This document shows positions 648 to 10,790 of a stretch of 32,000 nucleotides of DNA, piece after piece; the stretch's first letter is position 1; the number at the start of each line of letters is the position of its first letter. Below the pieces are notes generated by a model. That model was not told the origin of the DNA, did not search any database, and saw nothing but the letters and a program-made list of their open reading frames with translations. Position numbers and translations under genes: made by a program. The stretch covers positions 1,470,001 through 1,502,000 of the forward strand of contig NC_007681.1 of the NCBI RefSeq assembly GCF_000012545.1, written 5' to 3'. Source of the DNA: Methanosphaera stadtmanae DSM 3091 (GTDB taxonomy: Archaea > Methanobacteriota > Methanobacteria > Methanobacteriales > Methanobacteriaceae).

Positions 648-664
648 TCTTTTTACCCTATATA

Positions 665-681
665 TTTTTTTATTTTTTTTT
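665..681 (+). terminator. Oligo-T tracts (T7, T9) downstream of the frhB-like stop
   Basis: tttttttatttttttttt lies 18 nt after the stop codon. Archaeal intrinsic termination uses oligo-T runs. Confidence 0.5.
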
Positions 682-811
682 ACTTATTAATTTACTAATT
701 TTATGTGTGTTATGCCATTATTTTAAGTCTATTTTAAATTATTTTTATGTATATATTATTTAAGAGTATTTTTGTGCTTTATTTCATATTTAATATTATT
801 AAAAACAATGC

Positions 812-1226
812 AAAATTTTTAGGTATACCAAAATATTTATATACTCAGGAAGTATAATATTAAATTGACTAAGAAGTTTAGGTTATCCTAAATTCATATA
901 AGCCATCCTAAACTATTAGTCAATGACAAGTTAAACAAACAATTACAGACTATAAACATTAAATTAAAAGAATTAAAAACTATTACTCCTACACATAATC
1001 AAAACACGTGAATAAAAAAATAGTTTAAATAAATCACCTATTATTAATTAAAAATTCTTTTAAAAAAAAGTCTTAAAAATCCTCACTCCTTATTAAAAAA
1101 CATAATATAACTTGTAAAAAAAAAGAAAATAAAAAAAAATAAAACTCCCTAAGAACTCTAAAGAGAAATAATCTAAAGAGTAAATACAACTATTTTCTTT
1201 TTACATTAATTATCTTTTTTTTAAAA
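812..1226 (+). repeat. Copy A of a two-copy conserved ORF-free intergenic element (partner at 9351-9696)
   Basis: Collinear identical blocks of 10-27 nt shared with 9351-9696 (listed in findings), separated by indels. No conserved ORF on either strand. Confidence 0.85.
817..845 (+). promoter_or_regulatory. Candidate archaeal promoter: GGTATACC palindrome, A-rich BRE and TTTATATA box (copy A)
   Basis: ggtatacc at 822-829, then ccaaaa, then tttatata at 836-843. The same arrangement occurs in copy B. Lies between two converging gene 3' ends. Confidence 0.45.
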
Positions 1227-3645: not shown

Positions 3646-5274
3646 ATGTTGATAAAGGGAAATATTTTAAATGTATTTACAGATGAAATATATCCAGGAG
3701 AAATTAAAATTGAACATGGAATAATTGAATCAATAAAAGAAGTTAATGCCGATTTTAATGATATTATAGTTCCAGGTTTTATTGATGCACATATACATAT
3801 TGAAAGTTCAATGTTAACACCGTCACGATTTGCTGAAATAGCTCTAAGACATGGAACAACATCAGTCATTGCAGATCCACATGAAATTGCAAATGTCATG
3901 GGAATGGATGGTATTGACTATATGATTGATGATGCAAAAAAAACACCATTAAAATATTATTTTACTGCACCATCCTGTGTACCAGCAACAAAATTTGAAA
4001 AATCAGGTGCTACTATAAGTCCAAACATAATAGACAACCTATTATCCAGGCCTGAATTTGTAGCATTAGGTGAAGTGATGGATTATAATGCTGTAATTTC
4101 TAATGAAAAAAGTATCTTGGAAAAAATAAAAATAGCAAAAAAATATCATAAACCAATTGATGGGCATGCACCATTACTAAGTGGAAAGAATCTACAAAAA
4201 TATGTTAAACATGGTGTAATTACAGACCATGAAAGTACCACTAAAAAAGAAGTAGCTGAAAAAAAGAGAATGGGTATGAAGATAATGATCCGAGAAGGAT
4301 CAGAATCTAAAATGCTAGAAAAACTCATTTACTCAAATTGTGATTTTATAGTATCTGATGATCTTAAACCAGAAGATCTTATTAATGGACATTTAGATAA
4401 ATGTCTACGTAAAGCTGTTGACTATGGAATGGATCCATACGAAGCTATAAAACTTGTAACAATAAATCCTGCAGAACATTATAATTTAAATGCTGGAAGT
4501 ATCAGTCCAGGTAAAAGTGCAGATTTAGTATTTATAGATAATTTACGTGATTTCACAGTAAAACGTGTAGTTATAAATGGTAATACCATATTTAAAAAAC
4601 AAAAATTATTATTCCGTGCAAATCCACGTCCTATTGATACAACATTACATGTGTCCTTAACTAAACCAGAAGATTTTGATTTAAAAGCCCAAAATCCTGC
4701 ACATAAAAGTGCTACTGTTAATTTAATTAATGTATCTGATAACACAATCATTACAAAACAATCCAGTGCAAAATTAAGTATTCAGAAAAAAACAATTATT
4801 CCTTCAGTATTTGAAGATATTTTAAAAATAAGTGTTGTAGATAGGTATGGTGGAAATACTATTTCAAATGGTTTTGTTAAAGGATTTGGAATTAAAAATG
4901 GAGCAATAGCATCTAGTGTAAGTCATGATTCACATAATATAATAGTTGTTGGAACTAACAGTGAATACATGTCTCGTGCTACTAATCACTTAATTGAAAA
5001 TAAGGGAGGTCTTGCTGCAATATCCAACCAGGCTAAATTAGATGTTACCCTACCAATTGCAGGACTTATGAGTGATAAACCAGCAAAAGTAGTTGCTAAT
5101 AATTCAGCAAAATTAAATGAATTAGTAAGTAACATGGGATGTGAATTATCTAGCCCATTTACATCATTATCATTTATGGCATTACCTGTTGTACCTGAAG
5201 TTAAAATGACAACAAATGGATTGTTTAATGTTAATACACATCAATTTATTGATATAATAAAAGAAGAAAAATAA
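3646..5274 (+). CDS. ade: Adenine deaminase
   Basis: 542 aa. Amidohydrolase metal motif PGFIDAHIHIESSMLTP, then TSVIADPHEIANV and DGHAP, with the length typical of Ade. GGGGAG RBS upstream. Confidence 0.85.
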   Translation: MLIKGNILNVFTDEIYPGEIKIEHGIIESIKEVNADFNDIIVPGFIDAHIHIESSMLTPSRFAEIALRHGTTSVIADPHEIANVMGMDGIDYMIDDAKKTPLKYYFTAPSCVPATKFEKSGATISPNIIDNLLSRPEFVALGEVMDYNAVISNEKSILEKIKIAKKYHKPIDGHAPLLSGKNLQKYVKHGVITDHESTTKKEVAEKKRMGMKIMIREGSESKMLEKLIYSNCDFIVSDDLKPEDLINGHLDKCLRKAVDYGMDPYEAIKLVTINPAEHYNLNAGSISPGKSADLVFIDNLRDFTVKRVVINGNTIFKKQKLLFRANPRPIDTTLHVSLTKPEDFDLKAQNPAHKSATVNLINVSDNTIITKQSSAKLSIQKKTIIPSVFEDILKISVVDRYGGNTISNGFVKGFGIKNGAIASSVSHDSHNIIVVGTNSEYMSRATNHLIENKGGLAAISNQAKLDVTLPIAGLMSDKPAKVVANNSAKLNELVSNMGCELSSPFTSLSFMALPVVPEVKMTTNGLFNVNTHQFIDIIKEEK

Positions 5275-9350: not shown

Positions 9351-9696
9351 AAAATTTTTAGGTATACCAAAACCTTTATATACTATCGAAGTATAATATT
9401 AAATTGACTAAGAAAATTAGGTTTACCTAAATTCTTAGTTATGAGTTAAAAAATCCAATTAAAAGAATTAACAAAAATAACTATTATAAAACTACACAAT
9501 AAAAATAGTTAATCATATTTAAATCACCTATTATTAAATAAATTCTTTTAAATAATAACTCAACACTCCTTATTAAAAAAACATAATATAACATAAGCCA
9601 AAAAGAAAATAAAAAAAAATACTCTAAAACAAGCATCCAATGGAGTATTAGTACAAATAATATTTTCTTTTTAAAACTTATACTTTTTTTTAAAAA
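9351..9696 (+). repeat. Copy B of the two-copy conserved ORF-free intergenic element (partner at 812-1226)
   Basis: Same ordered set of identical blocks as copy A, about 70 nt shorter because of indels. Lies between converging genes. Confidence 0.85.
9356..9384 (+). promoter_or_regulatory. Candidate archaeal promoter: GGTATACC palindrome, A-rich BRE and TTTATATA box (copy B)
   Basis: ggtatacc at 9361-9368, then ccaaaa, then tttatata at 9375-9382. Confidence 0.45.
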
Positions 9697-10736
9697 TCAG
9701 ATACAAAATAATATATCATATTAAATCATTACAGATATTAGATAAATATATATATTATATGTGTAAAAAAAATAACTTAAGATACAAAGTAATTTGTATC
9801 GAAATTAAAAAAACATGAGAAACTGTGTATTTACAAAAAAATCTTTAAAACAATGTAAATAATAGATAGCCATCCGAAATTTAAAATAGGAATATTAAAA
9901 TCAATCTATTTAAAAAAAATTGAAGTTAATGATTAACTAAATAATAGATAAAACATAATCAAAGTATTAATTTAATTACTATTATGAATATGATAATTCA
10001 ACCAAGTATAATAAAAGTAATTATCACTATCAAGACTCTCAATAACAATAGTATGATATAATATTTCAAAACTTAAAGATTTTACTAAAATTATATACAT
10101 TATTTAAAAATAGCATCATATTTCTGAATTATGATCATAGTATCATCATAACAACTATAACATATTCGTAATTCATTGTTCTACAAGATTAGATGAAATT
10201 TTAAATAAGTAATATAAATATTACAATTAACAACTAGTGAAAAATCAAAAAGCAATGCTAAAAATACACGAAAAATAATTTGATTTATACAAAAACAACC
10301 ACTATAACAAAGCAAATACTACTAATTGTATAAATTAAAATTATTTAAAAAAAAATGAAGTTATCCTAGAAAATTAATATTTATTCATAAAAACTCTCTC
10401 AATTTCATAATATTATTGATAAAATATGAAATTGTAGACAAAAAAATTAAATTTATCTTTCTTAGTCTAAAATACCCTATATATAATGTTGAGGATGATA
10501 GACAAAGAATATAAACAATTAAAATCATCAGTAACACTAAAATAATGGTTTGAAGATAATTATTTTAAACCTAAAAAAGAAGAAGCTATGATTAAACAAA
10601 CCCATGGGCTGTGGGGGATAGCTCGATTAATCTAAACTACAATAATAGTTTATTGCCCGAGAAACACCAACCATAATAGTTGGAGTAAGTCAAAGTCTAT
10701 TTATTTTTTTTTAAGAGAACTATAACTTTATTTTTA

Positions 10737-10787
10737 GAGGTTATGACATGATTTAATAACTACTTGTTCCAATCATGTCATAATCTC
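10737..10787. repeat. Inverted repeat forming a 17-bp stem with a 17-nt loop, 3 nt beyond the proC-like stop
   Basis: gaggttatgacatgatt (10737-10753) pairs with aatcatgtcataatctc (10771-10787). There is one G-T position, which is a G-U wobble only in the + strand RNA. Confidence 0.7.
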
Positions 10788-10790
10788 ATT

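What the first reader, a model, noticed from the sequence alone, without database searches (positions are those of the whole stretch)
812..1226. Two-copy, ORF-free, promoter-bearing intergenic element: candidate undescribed small-RNA gene family
nt 812-1226 and 9351-9696 are collinear copies of one element on the same strand. Identical blocks verified by eye: aaaatttttaggtataccaaaa (812-833 = 9351-9372, 22 nt); tttatatact (836-845 = 9375-9384); gaagtataatattaaattgactaagaa (849-875 = 9388-9414, 27 nt); aattaaaagaattaa (962-976 = 9457-9471); aaatcacctattattaa (1031-1047 = 9521-9537); cactccttattaaaaaa(a)cataatataac (1084-1111 = 9564-9592); aaaagaaaataaaaaaaaata (1121-1141 = 9601-9621, 21 nt); tattttcttttta (1191-1203 = 9661-9673); cttttttttaaaa (1214-1226 = 9683-9695). 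Between blocks the copies differ by indels, and A is about 70 nt longer. That is modular conservation rather than a recent verbatim duplication. Both copies lie between CONVERGENT genes (frhB-like > < ygjP-like; DUF815 ATPase > < proC-like), where no mRNA promoter is needed. Yet each has a consensus archaeal TATA box with an A-rich BRE and ends in two oligo-T runs (T5 then T8). No ORF is conserved between the copies on either strand. The + strand is strongly A-rich, like the sense strand of genes here. Predicted transcripts run about 866-1222 and 9405-9691.
Basis: partly seen in the sequence, partly recalled or inferred. Interest (0 to 1): 0.78.

Follow-up and report, generated by a model that had tools for sequence, protein, structure and literature searches.

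The report
Iron-box-controlled small RNA in gut methanogens
The two look-alike gene-free stretches are two copies of a conserved, previously undescribed non-coding RNA gene of the human-gut methanogen Methanosphaera; its promoter carries iron-repressor binding sites and the RNA probably shuts down an iron-hungry hydrogenase when iron is scarce, a control so far described, as far as I could find, only in bacteria.

Summary
All nine listed blocks are identical, and the A/B alignment scores 168 bits against 81 or less for AT-rich background. The window is Methanosphaera stadtmanae DSM 3091.

The element is a family. I found 12 distinct full-length members in at least 8 gene contexts in Methanosphaera-type genomes and gut or rumen metagenomes. 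None has a conserved ORF, an Rfam match, or a phage or plasmid match.

Each member is a stand-alone + strand unit: BRE/TATA, predicted start at G867/G9406, an RNA of about 230-350 nt, then a hairpin and T-run. Seven helices are supported by shuffle tests, matched indels and a few compensatory changes. Formal covariation is modest.

New finding: two palindromes, TTTAGGTATACCAAAA (-49..-34) and TTTAGG-N4-CCTAAA (+11..+26), bracket the TATA box and start site. They match the ChIP-seq motif of the Haloferax DtxR-family iron repressor TroR. The same arrangement precedes feoAB-dtxR-VIT1 operons in Thermoplasmatales-type contigs.

The RNA is G-poor and shows unpaired C-rich anti-Shine-Dalgarno blocks. 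One block complements the frhA ribosome-binding site by 13-16 nt in three Methanosphaera species and by 10-11 nt in two more, but not in a Methanobrevibacter outgroup.

Best reading: an iron-starvation-induced, RyhB/IsrR-like sRNA. No expression data exist.

The parts
818..833 (+). Copy A, box O1: TTTAGGTATACCAAAA, a DtxR/TroR-type palindrome abutting the BRE, at about -49..-34
   Evidence: It is identical in copy B, L004, L035 and L038, all of which were retrieved without using this motif. It matches the Haloferax TroR ChIP-seq motif TTTAGGC-NNN-CCTAAAA and box O1 of the feoA promoters.
830..843 (+). Copy A, A-rich BRE (AAAATA) plus TATA box TTTATATA (836-843)
   Evidence: The consensus methanogen promoter is from established knowledge. 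The TATA box ends 23 nt before the predicted start.
867..1202 (+). Copy A, predicted primary transcript (about 336 nt), from G867 to the first T-run. This is the non-coding RNA.
   Evidence: Promoter geometry. No T5 or longer run occurs before 1198 on the + strand, whereas the - strand has T9 runs. MFE -44.7 kcal/mol, z = -4.86, against -2.81 for the opposite strand. nhmmer places the family at 866-1202.
866..922 (+). Copy A, 5' domain: helix P1 (866-878 with 907-922) enclosing P2
   Evidence: The duplex beats shuffles in 10/10 members. Pair 2/41 occurs as G-C x7, G-U x2 and A-U x1.
877..892 (+). Copy A, box O2: TTTAGGTTATCCTAAA at +11..+26. It is the second DtxR/TroR-type palindrome, and in the RNA it forms hairpin P2.
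   Evidence: The half-sites are essentially invariant (copy B's outermost base differs, ATTAGG), and the 4-nt spacer varies (TTAT, TAAT, TTTG, TAGT, TTTA) across members. It was not part of any search pattern.
926..1083 (+). Copy A, central domain. It holds P5 (AGACT 947-951 with AGTCT 1069-1073), P6 (TTAAAAGAATT 964-974 with AATTCTTTTAA 1053-1063), and P3 (AACTATT 978-984 with AATAGTT 1019-1025), whose loop shows ACTCCTACA (985-993). P4 is weak in this copy.
   Evidence: Matched indels and joint absence of both arms are seen across members.
1030..1047 (+). Copy A, block S2: TAAATCACCTATTATTAA. It is an unpaired anti-Shine-Dalgarno block and the candidate seed for frhA.
   Evidence: Unpaired probability 0.86. 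It is a perfect 13-nt complement of the M. stadtmanae frhA ribosome-binding site. The core ATCACCTAT is present in 11 of 12 members.
1084..1111 (+). Copy A, block S3: CACTCCTTATTAAAAAACATAATATAAC, an unpaired C/U-rich block just 3' of the central domain
   Evidence: It is nearly invariant in 10 of 12 members and absent in L035. Unpaired probability 0.63-0.97.
1120..1202 (+). Copy A, 3' domain. Helix P7 pairs the A-block (1120-1131) with the U-block TATTTTCTTTTT (1191-1202). It encloses AACTCCCTAA (1143-1152) and the 3' hairpin (1155-1181). The U-block is the predicted termination site.
   Evidence: P7 is significant in 9/10 members and covaries in L017, L025, L019 and L038. The 3' hairpin is present in 9/10 members with different arm sequences, z from -2 to -9.
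1215..1222 (+). Copy A, second oligo-T run (T8), a likely back-up terminator
   Evidence: A second T5-T8 run follows the first in most members.
9357..9372 (+). Copy B, box O1
9375..9382 (+). Copy B, TATA box TTTATATA
9406..9672 (+). Copy B, predicted transcript (about 267 nt). It is a shorter, more diverged paralogue that lacks the P5 arms, the CTCCT motif in the P3 loop, and the CTCCC block.
   Evidence: nhmmer places it at 9405-9672, E = 1e-33.
9416..9431 (+). Copy B, box O2 (ATTAGGTTTACCTAAA) at +11..+26
9520..9537 (+). Copy B, block S2 (TAAATCACCTATTATTAA)
   Evidence: unpaired probability 0.93.
9564..9592 (+). Copy B, block S3
9600..9691 (+). Copy B, 3' domain: A-block 9600-9611, hairpin 9619-9648, U-block 9661-9672, and the second T-run (T8) at 9684-9691

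Best explanation
Each copy is a stand-alone gene for a structured, non-coding RNA of about 270-340 nt, transcribed on the + strand. The family is conserved in Methanosphaera and close relatives. Two DtxR/TroR-type operator palindromes bracket its promoter, one abutting the BRE and one at +11..+26. A metal-loaded DtxR-family repressor would therefore keep the gene off when iron is plentiful, and the RNA would be made when iron runs short. The RNA is G-poor. It presents three or four unpaired C-rich blocks that mimic the 3' end of 16S rRNA, and these would pair with Shine-Dalgarno regions and block translation of mRNAs for dispensable iron-rich enzymes. The best candidate target is frhA, the first gene of the F420-reducing [NiFe]/Fe-S hydrogenase operon, which lies directly upstream of copy A. 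Shown here: the family, its lack of coding capacity, the promoter and terminator anatomy, the boxes and their link to iron genes elsewhere, the structure, and the frhA complementarity. Inferred: transcription itself, repressor binding, iron responsiveness, and the trans-acting mechanism.
For: Family and selection: there are 12 distinct full-length members in at least 8 gene contexts. The orthologous site after DUF815 is kept in species whose ProC is only 60% and DUF815 about 73% identical.
Non-coding.
Transcription unit: the BRE/TATA-to-start geometry is identical in both copies. The T-runs lie only at the 3' end of the + strand. A 3' hairpin is present in 9/10 members with different arm sequences.
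Structure: z = -4.86. P1 is significant in 10/10, P4 in 8/10, P5/P6 in 9/10 and P7 in 9/10 members. In the formal count, 88.6% of cells pair, against 30-50% when partners are slid, and 4 pairs show double changes. G-U pairs occur on the + strand only.
Iron boxes: the motif occurs only at the two promoters in about 50 kb of M. stadtmanae DNA. It matches the TroR ChIP-seq motif TTTAGGC-NNN-CCTAAAA, which occurs as tandem sites around the TATA box, either one sufficient for iron-dependent repression (PMC10783522). The same O1-TATA-O2 layout precedes feoA-feoB-dtxR-VIT1 in four further loci, three of them found by protein homology. L035 and L038 were found through FrhA and carry both boxes.
Function: composition is A 0.50, C 0.14, G 0.06-0.08. 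The C-rich blocks have unpaired probabilities of 0.62-0.99, against about 0.5 overall. frhA ranks first of 36 translation-initiation regions. The frhA ribosome-binding site core ATAGGTGATT is invariant in 5/5 Methanosphaera species while the rest of the 5' UTR is scrambled, it extends to 13-16 nt in three of them, and it is absent in the Methanobrevibacter outgroup.
Design parallel: IsrR has two repressor boxes, one in the promoter and one just after the start site, plus unpaired C-rich regions that hit SD sequences in an AT-rich genome (PMC9410917).
Against: There is no transcript evidence of any kind; I found no RNA-seq or TSS study of M. stadtmanae itself. I could not show a DtxR-family gene or an iron-uptake gene carrying the box in Methanosphaera, so the box-to-iron link rests on Haloferax and on Thermoplasmatales-type contigs. 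Members from the metagenome scan were retrieved with O1+TATA as the pattern, so O1 conservation is circular there; it is independent only in 5 members. Formal covariation is modest: 29/500 shuffles reach the observed number of double changes, and most helices are invariant. A general duplex screen of whole transcripts against window translation-initiation regions was no better than shuffles. The frhA match was found post hoc, and 7 of its nucleotides are simply a strong SD. DtxR-family paralogues can sense Mn or Zn instead of Fe. Copy A has a weak P4, and L035 lacks block S3, so not all modules are essential.
Confidence: 0.5

Rival explanations
1. It is a real, box-regulated non-coding RNA, but it does not act by pairing with ribosome-binding sites. 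It could instead be a protein-binding or sponge RNA, for example one that titrates an RNA-binding protein or mimics the 16S 3' end, or a scaffold. The frhA match would then be coincidental.
For: The stems are conserved in primary sequence with little covariation, which in IsrR was read as a possible protein-contact surface. The RNA is long for a seed-type sRNA (about 300 nt) and has a 28-nt invariant block (S3) with no identified target. Seven of the 13 nt matching frhA are generic SD sequence.
Against: The multiple unpaired C-rich motifs in a G-poor RNA are the hallmark of anti-SD regulators in AT-rich organisms. The frhA complementarity extends beyond the SD on both sides and is kept in five species while the surrounding UTR is scrambled.
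Confidence: 0.2
2. The anatomy is the same, but the boxes are read by a DtxR-family paralogue that senses manganese or zinc (MntR/SirR/ZntR-like). The RNA would then belong to a Mn or Zn response and not an iron response.
For: Archaea carry one to five DtxR paralogues with different metal specificities (PMC10783522, citing Leyn and Rodionov). FeoB and VIT1 can also move Mn (PMC8351635, for FeoB; established knowledge for VIT1). No metal was tested here.
Against: The motif matches the TroR motif that was tied experimentally to iron. The co-regulated operons encode FeoAB, the main Fe(II) importer. The best candidate target is an Fe-S-rich enzyme.
Confidence: 0.12
3. It acts in cis. It could be a regulated promoter whose transcript or transcription interferes with the convergent downstream gene, or a 3'-UTR or terminator module of the upstream gene, and not a trans-acting RNA.
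For: In most loci the element sits just downstream of a co-oriented gene and often faces a convergent gene. Copy A follows the frh operon in three species.
Against: The upstream and downstream genes differ between loci, with at least 8 contexts. The element has its own consensus promoter and ends in a hairpin plus two T-runs before the next gene. In copy B, 1.1 kb separates it from the convergent gene. In L019 and L017 the next gene is co-oriented.
Confidence: 0.06
4. It is a mobile or decayed sequence, either a MITE-like repeat or the remnant of a duplicated gene plus promoter, with no function of its own.
For: It is dispersed in different contexts and present in two copies per genome. One contig (L023) joins the flank of copy A to the body of copy B.
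Against: There are only two copies in the window and one per fetched locus. It has no terminal inverted repeats and no match in viral, phage or plasmid collections. Its position is syntenic across species. Block-wise conservation and paired arms persist at divergences where intergenic DNA is otherwise scrambled. No reading frame is recoverable in any member.
Confidence: 0.03

Closest known systems
IsrR (Staphylococcus) and FsrA (Bacillus subtilis): Fur-repressed iron-sparing sRNAs of AT-rich Firmicutes
   Same: These are stand-alone non-coding genes. IsrR has two repressor boxes, one in the promoter and one just downstream of the start site. Both present several unpaired C-rich regions, in loops or next to stems, that pair with G-rich Shine-Dalgarno sequences of mRNAs for Fe-S enzymes. 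The stems are conserved in sequence with little covariation, and the terminator is variable (PMC9410917).
   Different: There is no sequence or Rfam relationship. The host here is archaeal, with a BRE/TATA promoter and oligo-T termination. The repressor boxes are of DtxR/TroR type, not Fur type. The RNA is about twice as long. The target is inferred, not shown.
RyhB / PrrF1-PrrF2 (Proteobacteria) and MrsI (Mycobacterium tuberculosis)
   Same: The logic is an iron-starvation-induced riboregulator that spares iron by repressing non-essential iron proteins. The genes are often duplicated, as ryhB and prrF are, and here there are two paralogues. MrsI is predicted to be controlled by IdeR, a DtxR-family repressor.
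   Different: There is no homology. RyhB and PrrF depend on Hfq. The seeds are not anti-SD C-rich motifs. None of these is archaeal.
TroR/DtxR iron regulon of Haloferax volcanii (operator TTTAGGC-NNN-CCTAAAA)
   Same: The half-sites and the 4-nt spacing are the same. The sites are tandem around the TATA box, and either site is sufficient for repression in iron-replete cells (PMC10783522). The same boxes sit on feoAB-dtxR-VIT1 operons in other Euryarchaeota.
   Different: [quoted passage not shown] The box spacing here is 59 bp centre to centre, against about 30 bp in Haloferax and about 47 bp at feoA.
Characterised archaeal trans-acting sRNAs (Methanosarcina sRNA162, sRNA154 and sRNA41; Haloferax s479 and SHOxi)
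   Same: They are intergenic, stress-regulated archaeal sRNAs, and some mask ribosome-binding sites (titles and abstracts listed; details from my own knowledge).
   Different: There is no sequence relationship (Rfam). Those respond to nitrogen, zinc/CRISPR context or oxidative stress. I found none reported for Methanobacteriales or for iron.

Membership tests
Any Rfam 15 family (including archaeal C/D-box, H/ACA, SRP, RNase P and known sRNAs) | Covariance-model match at or above the gathering score | tested here: not met
   There are 0 hits in the whole window at gathering thresholds. With permissive filters on both intergenic regions, only chance-level hits appear, with E above 1 and far below gathering.
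Iron-sparing sRNA class (RyhB, PrrF, FsrA, IsrR, MrsI): a functional class, not a homology family | The promoter carries operator(s) of the iron-sensing repressor | tested here: met
   Two DtxR/TroR-type palindromes bracket the TATA box and start site in every member. The motif is tied to iron by ChIP-seq and reporter assays in Haloferax and by feoAB-dtxR promoters. This is sequence-level evidence only.
Iron-sparing sRNA class | The transcript accumulates under iron limitation and is repressed when iron is replete | not testable with these tools
   No expression data are available. I found no M. stadtmanae transcriptome or TSS study.
Iron-sparing sRNA class | Non-coding | tested here: met
   All six frames are interrupted in both copies and no ORF is shared. 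No ORF is conserved among the 12 members.
Iron-sparing sRNA class | Base-pairs with mRNAs of iron-containing proteins, typically at the ribosome-binding site | tested here: inconclusive
   The frhA ribosome-binding site complements block S2 by 13-16 nt in three species and by 10-11 nt in two more, is not complementary in the outgroup, and ranks first of 36 translation-initiation regions. The whole-transcript screen was not above the null. There is no experimental pairing.
Iron-sparing sRNA class | Sequence homology to a known member | tested here: not met
   Rfam holds models for sRNAs of this class, and none matched. The element is therefore an analogue, not a homologue.
Archaeal DtxR/TroR regulon | TTTAGG-N4-CCTAAA palindrome(s) overlapping core promoter elements | tested here: met
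   O1 lies at -49..-34 and O2 at +11..+26 in both copies. In the window the motif is found only there: 4 matches against 1.05 expected.
Archaeal DtxR/TroR regulon | A cognate DtxR-family repressor is encoded in the same genome and binds the site in a metal-dependent way | not tested
   No DtxR gene lies in the roughly 50 kb of M. stadtmanae DNA I could read. The family is reported to be widespread in archaea. Binding cannot be tested here.
Archaeal DtxR/TroR regulon | The same box occurs on iron-homeostasis genes of the same lineage | not tested
   This is shown only for Thermoplasmatales-type contigs and, from the literature, for Haloferax. No Methanosphaera iron gene was within reach of the tools.
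MITE, IS or other mobile element | Terminal inverted repeats or target-site duplications, many copies, or similarity to known mobile DNA | tested here: not met
   There are two copies in 32 kb and one per locus in 218 kb. Positions are syntenic. There are no viral, phage or plasmid matches. No terminal inverted repeats are apparent at the boundaries.
5' leader or riboswitch of a downstream gene | A consistent co-oriented downstream gene with no terminator in between | tested here: not met
   The downstream genes differ and are often convergent. A hairpin plus two T-runs precede them.

The most novel reading that the evidence does not exclude
This would be the first iron-sparing riboregulator in Archaea. 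A DtxR/TroR-repressed small RNA of the human-gut methanogen Methanosphaera would be made when iron is scarce. Through an unpaired mimic of the 16S rRNA 3' end, it would mask the ribosome-binding site of frhA and shut off synthesis of the very iron-rich F420-reducing hydrogenase, and probably other targets through its other C-rich blocks. The RyhB/IsrR solution would then have arisen independently in the archaeal domain.
Probability: 0.4. Interest if true: 0.85.

Novelty: new variant of a known kind. Interest (0 to 1): 0.77.

Why it matters
Methanogens have among the highest iron demands known, yet I found nothing on how they regulate iron use; the review of methanogen iron and sulfur pathways (PMC8351635) mentions neither DtxR nor small RNAs. 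My literature searches found no metal-starvation sRNA in any methanogen and no iron-responsive sRNA in any archaeon.

If this reading is right, it gives three things. It is a concrete, testable post-transcriptional arm of the archaeal iron response. It is a case of convergent evolution with the bacterial RyhB, FsrA and IsrR systems. It is a handle on how a human-gut methanogen, which competes for iron with the host and with bacteria, reallocates iron away from a dispensable hydrogenase.

It also adds a non-coding member to the DtxR/TroR regulon and supplies a new RNA family for Rfam. Even on the most cautious reading, it is a conserved, structured, promoter-bearing orphan RNA gene family in a clinically relevant archaeon.

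Tried and rejected
1. Known RNA family. Rfam at gathering and permissive thresholds and ARAGORN gave nothing.
2. Small protein. Six-frame translations of both copies show no shared ORF.
3. Mobile or viral origin. There are no hits in viral contigs, phages or plasmids.
4. Plain MAFFT plus RNAalifold on full-length members recovered only the two invariant helices, because indel-rich loops are misaligned. I replaced this with anchor-based duplex tests and a condensed alignment for the formal count.
5. I did not build a covariance model, because a model of about 300 positions would probably exceed the calibration limit. I used an nhmmer profile instead.
6. Whole-transcript target prediction against the window's translation-initiation regions was not better than shuffles.
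7. The second 10-nt S2 match, at a LeuA/CimA-like gene, was judged too weak.
8. The ten 'class 2' hits of the metagenome scan share GGTATACC-AAAA-TATA, but they are virus-like early promoters with a different half-site (ATGGTA). I excluded them from the family.
9. I first took L011 to be a Methanobacteriaceae contig. Its FeoB is in fact Thermoplasmatales-like.
10. Attempts to reach a Methanosphaera DtxR or iron gene failed. An extra 18 kb or so flanking the window and about 95 kb of other Methanosphaera loci contain none. The paper by Leyn and Rodionov (2015) is not held.
11. Naming the organisms of the metagenome loci through cluster look-up returned no names.
12. The 1.1-kb gap after copy B is not a detectable decayed copy of neighbouring genes.
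13. The bacterial-type terminator scan finds nothing, because it requires at least 3 G-C pairs.
Full report
OBSERVATION. The two regions are real, collinear, same-strand copies. MAFFT aligns 812-1226 with 9351-9696. The best direct repeat in the whole window is 812-898 = 9351-9437, 87 nt at 89%. A sensitive blastn of intergenic region A against the window gives 168 bits for region B, against 81 or less for anything else in this 27%-GC sequence. The flanking genes are as described. Protein identities to ABC57683, ABC57684 and ABC57691 on a 1,767,403-bp contig identify the window as Methanosphaera stadtmanae DSM 3091. Close strains carry copy A with no substitutions within the transcribed body and promoter; the only differences there lie in homopolymer tracts. 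The 160 nt upstream carries several SNPs.

IT IS A FAMILY. A 22-mer from the start-site block found one genome hit: a full-length third copy in a rumen Methanobacteriaceae MAG, behind an unrelated LOR/Tubby-like gene. A scan of metagenome contigs with the O1+TATA core returned 24 loci, 13 of which carry the whole element. Looking up FrhA homologues later uncovered two more copies, in Methanosphaera sp. ISO3-F5 and another Methanosphaera sp., each directly downstream of frhB. Altogether there are 12 distinct full-length members.
- Three of them (L019, L025, L028) occupy the copy-B site after guaA-DUF815, in species whose DUF815, Nre and ProC are only 73%, 77% and 60% identical to M. stadtmanae.
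- Three species have a copy after frhB, which is the copy-A site.
- The rest sit behind unrelated genes, with convergent or co-oriented neighbours.
A profile search of 218 kb of fetched DNA found only these copies: two in the window and one per locus. The element is therefore not a leader of a particular gene and not a high-copy repeat.

WHAT IT IS NOT. It gives no Rfam match at gathering or permissive thresholds and no tRNA or tmRNA. No ORF is shared between the copies on either strand. It has no similarity to viral contigs, phage genomes or plasmids.

TRANSCRIPTION UNIT. Both copies have an A-rich BRE and the TATA box TTTATATA. Twenty-three nt downstream lies a T-G step, the predicted start at G867 and G9406. 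On the + strand no T5 or longer run occurs until TATTTTCTTTTT (1191-1202; 9661-9672), and a T8 follows. The opposite strand contains T9 runs that would stop an archaeal polymerase almost at once. That oligo-T tracts terminate archaeal transcription is established knowledge. The predicted RNAs are about 336 and 267 nt long, 50% A and only 6-8% G.

STRUCTURE. The + strand of copy A folds at -44.7 kcal/mol, z = -4.86, with 0 of 100 shuffles as good; the opposite strand gives z = -2.81. I located helix arms by sequence anchors that do not depend on pairing, and tested each duplex against shuffles.
- P1 is the 5'-terminal UGACUAAGAAG pairing with CUUCUAGUCA. It is significant in 10/10 members, and its second pair occurs as G-C, G-U and A-U.
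- P2 is the box-O2 hairpin.
- P3 is AACUAUU pairing with AAUAGUU. It is invariant and displays ACUCCUACA in its loop.
- P4 is GAGUUAA pairing with UUAACUC. It is significant in 8/10 members, and L019 has a compensatory A-U to U-A change.
- P5 is AGACU pairing with AGUCU. Both arms are missing together in copy B and in L027.
- P6 is UUAAAAGAAUU pairing with AAUUCUUUUAA. It shows matched indels in L004 and an extension in L019, and both arms are absent together in L017 and L025. P5 and P6 taken together are significant in 9/10 members.
- P7 is the A-block AAAGAAAAUA pairing with the terminal UAUUUUCUUU. It is significant in 9/10 members. It covaries in L017 (GUAAAAAAAGAUAUAA with UUAUAUCCUUUUUUUAC), and shows matched changes in L025, L019 and L038.
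- A 3' hairpin is present in 9/10 members, with at least seven different arm sequences and z from -2 to -9.
The formal count on a condensed alignment of P1 to P4 gives 88.6% of cells paired, against 30-50% when partners are slid. Only 4 pairs show double changes, a number reached by 29 of 500 shuffles. The alignable helices are mostly invariant, so covariation support is real but modest.

THE PROMOTER CARRIES IRON-REPRESSOR BOXES. Two palindromes bracket the core promoter: O1, TTTAGGTATACCAAAA, at -49..-34 and abutting the BRE; and O2, TTTAGG-N4-CCTAAA, at +11..+26. Within about 50 kb of M. stadtmanae DNA the motif occurs nowhere else. The half-sites of O2 are essentially invariant across members, while its 4-nt spacer varies. 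Three lines of evidence identify the boxes.
(i) One metagenome hit (L011) has the same O1-TATA-O2 layout directly upstream of feoA, feoB, a DtxR-family repressor (PF01325 and PF02742) and VIT1.
(ii) Its FeoB is Thermoplasmatales-like. Three further feoAB-dtxR loci, found by protein homology with FeoB only 72-79% identical to L011's, carry both boxes in the same positions; the two of these that extend far enough downstream also encode a VIT1-like gene. A fourth locus, a short contig, retains only O2. That is a phylogenetic footprint.
(iii) ChIP-seq of the DtxR-family regulator TroR in Haloferax volcanii gave the motif TTTAGGC-NNN-CCTAAAA, which has the same half-sites and spacing. It occurs as tandem sites around the TATA box, and either site is sufficient for repression in iron-replete cells (PMC10783522).
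Caveat: the metagenome members were retrieved with O1+TATA as the query, so O1 conservation in them is circular. It is independent in copies A and B, L004, L035 and L038. O2 and the RNA body were never part of a query.

LIKELY FUNCTION. The conserved segments that are not helix arms are C-rich: ACUCCUACA (the P3 loop), AAAUCACCUAUUA (S2), CACUCCUUAUUAAAAACAUAAUAUAAC (S3) and AACUCCCUAA (S4). Their predicted unpaired probabilities are 0.62-0.99, against about 0.5 for the whole RNA. S2 contains AUCACCU, which is identical to the anti-Shine-Dalgarno end of 16S rRNA (established knowledge). The SDs in this window are AAGGAG, AGGTG and GGAGG.

I ranked 36 M. stadtmanae translation-initiation regions against the four blocks. 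frhA came first: AAUAGGUGAUUUA is a perfect 13-nt complement of S2 (-16.4 kcal/mol), spanning the SD to 4 nt before the start codon. As an independent test I fetched frhA from four more Methanosphaera species and one Methanobrevibacter.
- The core ATAGGTGATT is invariant in all five Methanosphaera species, although the rest of each 5' UTR is unalignable.
- It extends to 16 nt in L035 and to 15 nt in ISO3-F5, where it is perfect against that strain's own RNA.
- The outgroup has AGAGGTGACA instead.
- In 228 kb of Methanosphaera-type DNA, the only complements of S2 of 13 nt or more, apart from the RNA genes themselves, are the frhA ribosome-binding sites.
Frh is a Ni-Fe enzyme with multiple [4Fe-4S] clusters; the Pfam hits to FrhG and FrhB are. 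From my own knowledge it is not part of the methanol-plus-H2 energy pathway of M. stadtmanae, which makes it a plausible enzyme to sacrifice. Copy A lies immediately downstream of the frh operon.

A whole-transcript duplex screen was not informative, and the frhA lead was found post hoc. It is a prediction, not a result.

COMPARISON WITH WHAT IS KNOWN. The design matches staphylococcal IsrR almost point for point. IsrR has two repressor boxes, one in the promoter and one just after the start site. It has unpaired C-rich regions that hit SD sequences in an AT-rich genome. Its stems are conserved with little covariation, and its terminator is variable (PMC9410917). MrsI of M. tuberculosis is predicted to be controlled by IdeR, a DtxR-family repressor, and ryhB and prrF are often duplicated. 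There is no sequence homology to any of these, so the RNA is an analogue and not a member. My literature searches found no iron- or metal-starvation sRNA in methanogens, and none for iron in any archaeon.

WHAT IS NOT SHOWN. Four things remain unproven: transcription, iron responsiveness, a DtxR-family gene or a boxed iron gene in Methanosphaera itself, and any RNA-mRNA interaction. The responsible paralogue could sense Mn or Zn. The modules are not all universal: copy B lacks P5 and two C-rich motifs, L035 lacks S3, and L017 lacks S2.

VERDICT. I put about 0.85 on a genuine, conserved, independently transcribed non-coding RNA gene family. I put about 0.7 on control by a DtxR/TroR-type metal repressor. 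I put about 0.45-0.5 on the full model, an iron-starvation-induced anti-SD riboregulator with frhA as a target. It is a new variant of a known kind, and of high interest because it is directly testable.

Noticed in passing
L005, L006, L007, L009, L014, L016, L018, L020, L022, L026 (for example L014 264-330): Ten metagenome contigs carry a promoter with two TGGTATACCA palindromes around a consensus TATA box (ATGGTATACCAAAAGGTTTATATAC..N6-8..TGGTATACCAT). It is followed by strings of tiny Zn-finger ORFs, a DNA methyltransferase-like ORF, QueD/QueE-like ORFs and a 957-aa ORF. This looks like the early operon of an archaeal virus or provirus with its own repressor operator. The half-site ATGGTA differs from the TAGGTA of the RNA promoters.
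   Followed up: partly
L023 (oriented 4010-4470), compared with window 790-833 and 9373-9790: This M. stadtmanae-type contig has the frhADGB operon and the upstream flank of copy A, then switches inside the shared 22-nt block to the body of copy B and copy B's downstream sequence. It is either a metagenome assembly chimera across the repeat, or a real deletion of the 8.5 kb between the two direct copies.
   Followed up: no
L036 12612-15034: In Methanosphaera sp. rholeuAM130, frhB is convergent with DUF815. That is what an inversion of the whole segment between the copy-A and copy-B sites of M. stadtmanae would give. No RNA copy lies in the 218-nt junction. The two RNA loci may mark rearrangement end-points.
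   Followed up: no
window 9697-10790: This is a 1.1-kb A-rich stretch (47% A) downstream of copy B with no ORF above 50 aa and no called gene in a close strain (L034). The numbering of the DSM 3091 protein accessions suggests one annotated ORF here. It contains a 33-nt direct repeat (9896-9928 and 10331-10363) that reads as a T-rich TATA-like motif on the minus strand. It also has a roughly 50-nt imperfect palindrome at 10737-10787, just past the end of proC. It has no detectable similarity to neighbouring genes of related loci.
   Followed up: partly
window 648-811 compared with 812-1229, in L001-L003: Among near-identical strains, the 164 nt upstream of box O1 carry about 6 substitutions. 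The 418-nt element shows changes only within homopolymer tracts (A-run length changes and one shifted G). This is a small-sample hint of purifying selection within the species.
   Followed up: no
Genome-contig scan: The 22-mer that occurs twice in this window did not return M. stadtmanae DSM 3091 from the species-representative genome collection, although the window is from that genome. That stretch is presumably masked or absent there, so the copy number per complete genome could not be counted.
   Followed up: no
L013 (oriented 1685-2758) and L038 3785-5065: IS605 OrfB/TnpB-like genes lie within a few kb of the RNA gene in two loci. In L013 the assignment rests on sequence appearance only; in L038 it rests on Pfam PF01385/PF07282. 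No link to the element was evident.
   Followed up: no
L034 14590-14620 (minus strand); L035-L038 around 9985-10003: The frhA start codon differs between Methanosphaera species (TTG, TTG, ATG, GTG, ATG), while the preceding ATAGGTGATT is invariant.
   Followed up: partly
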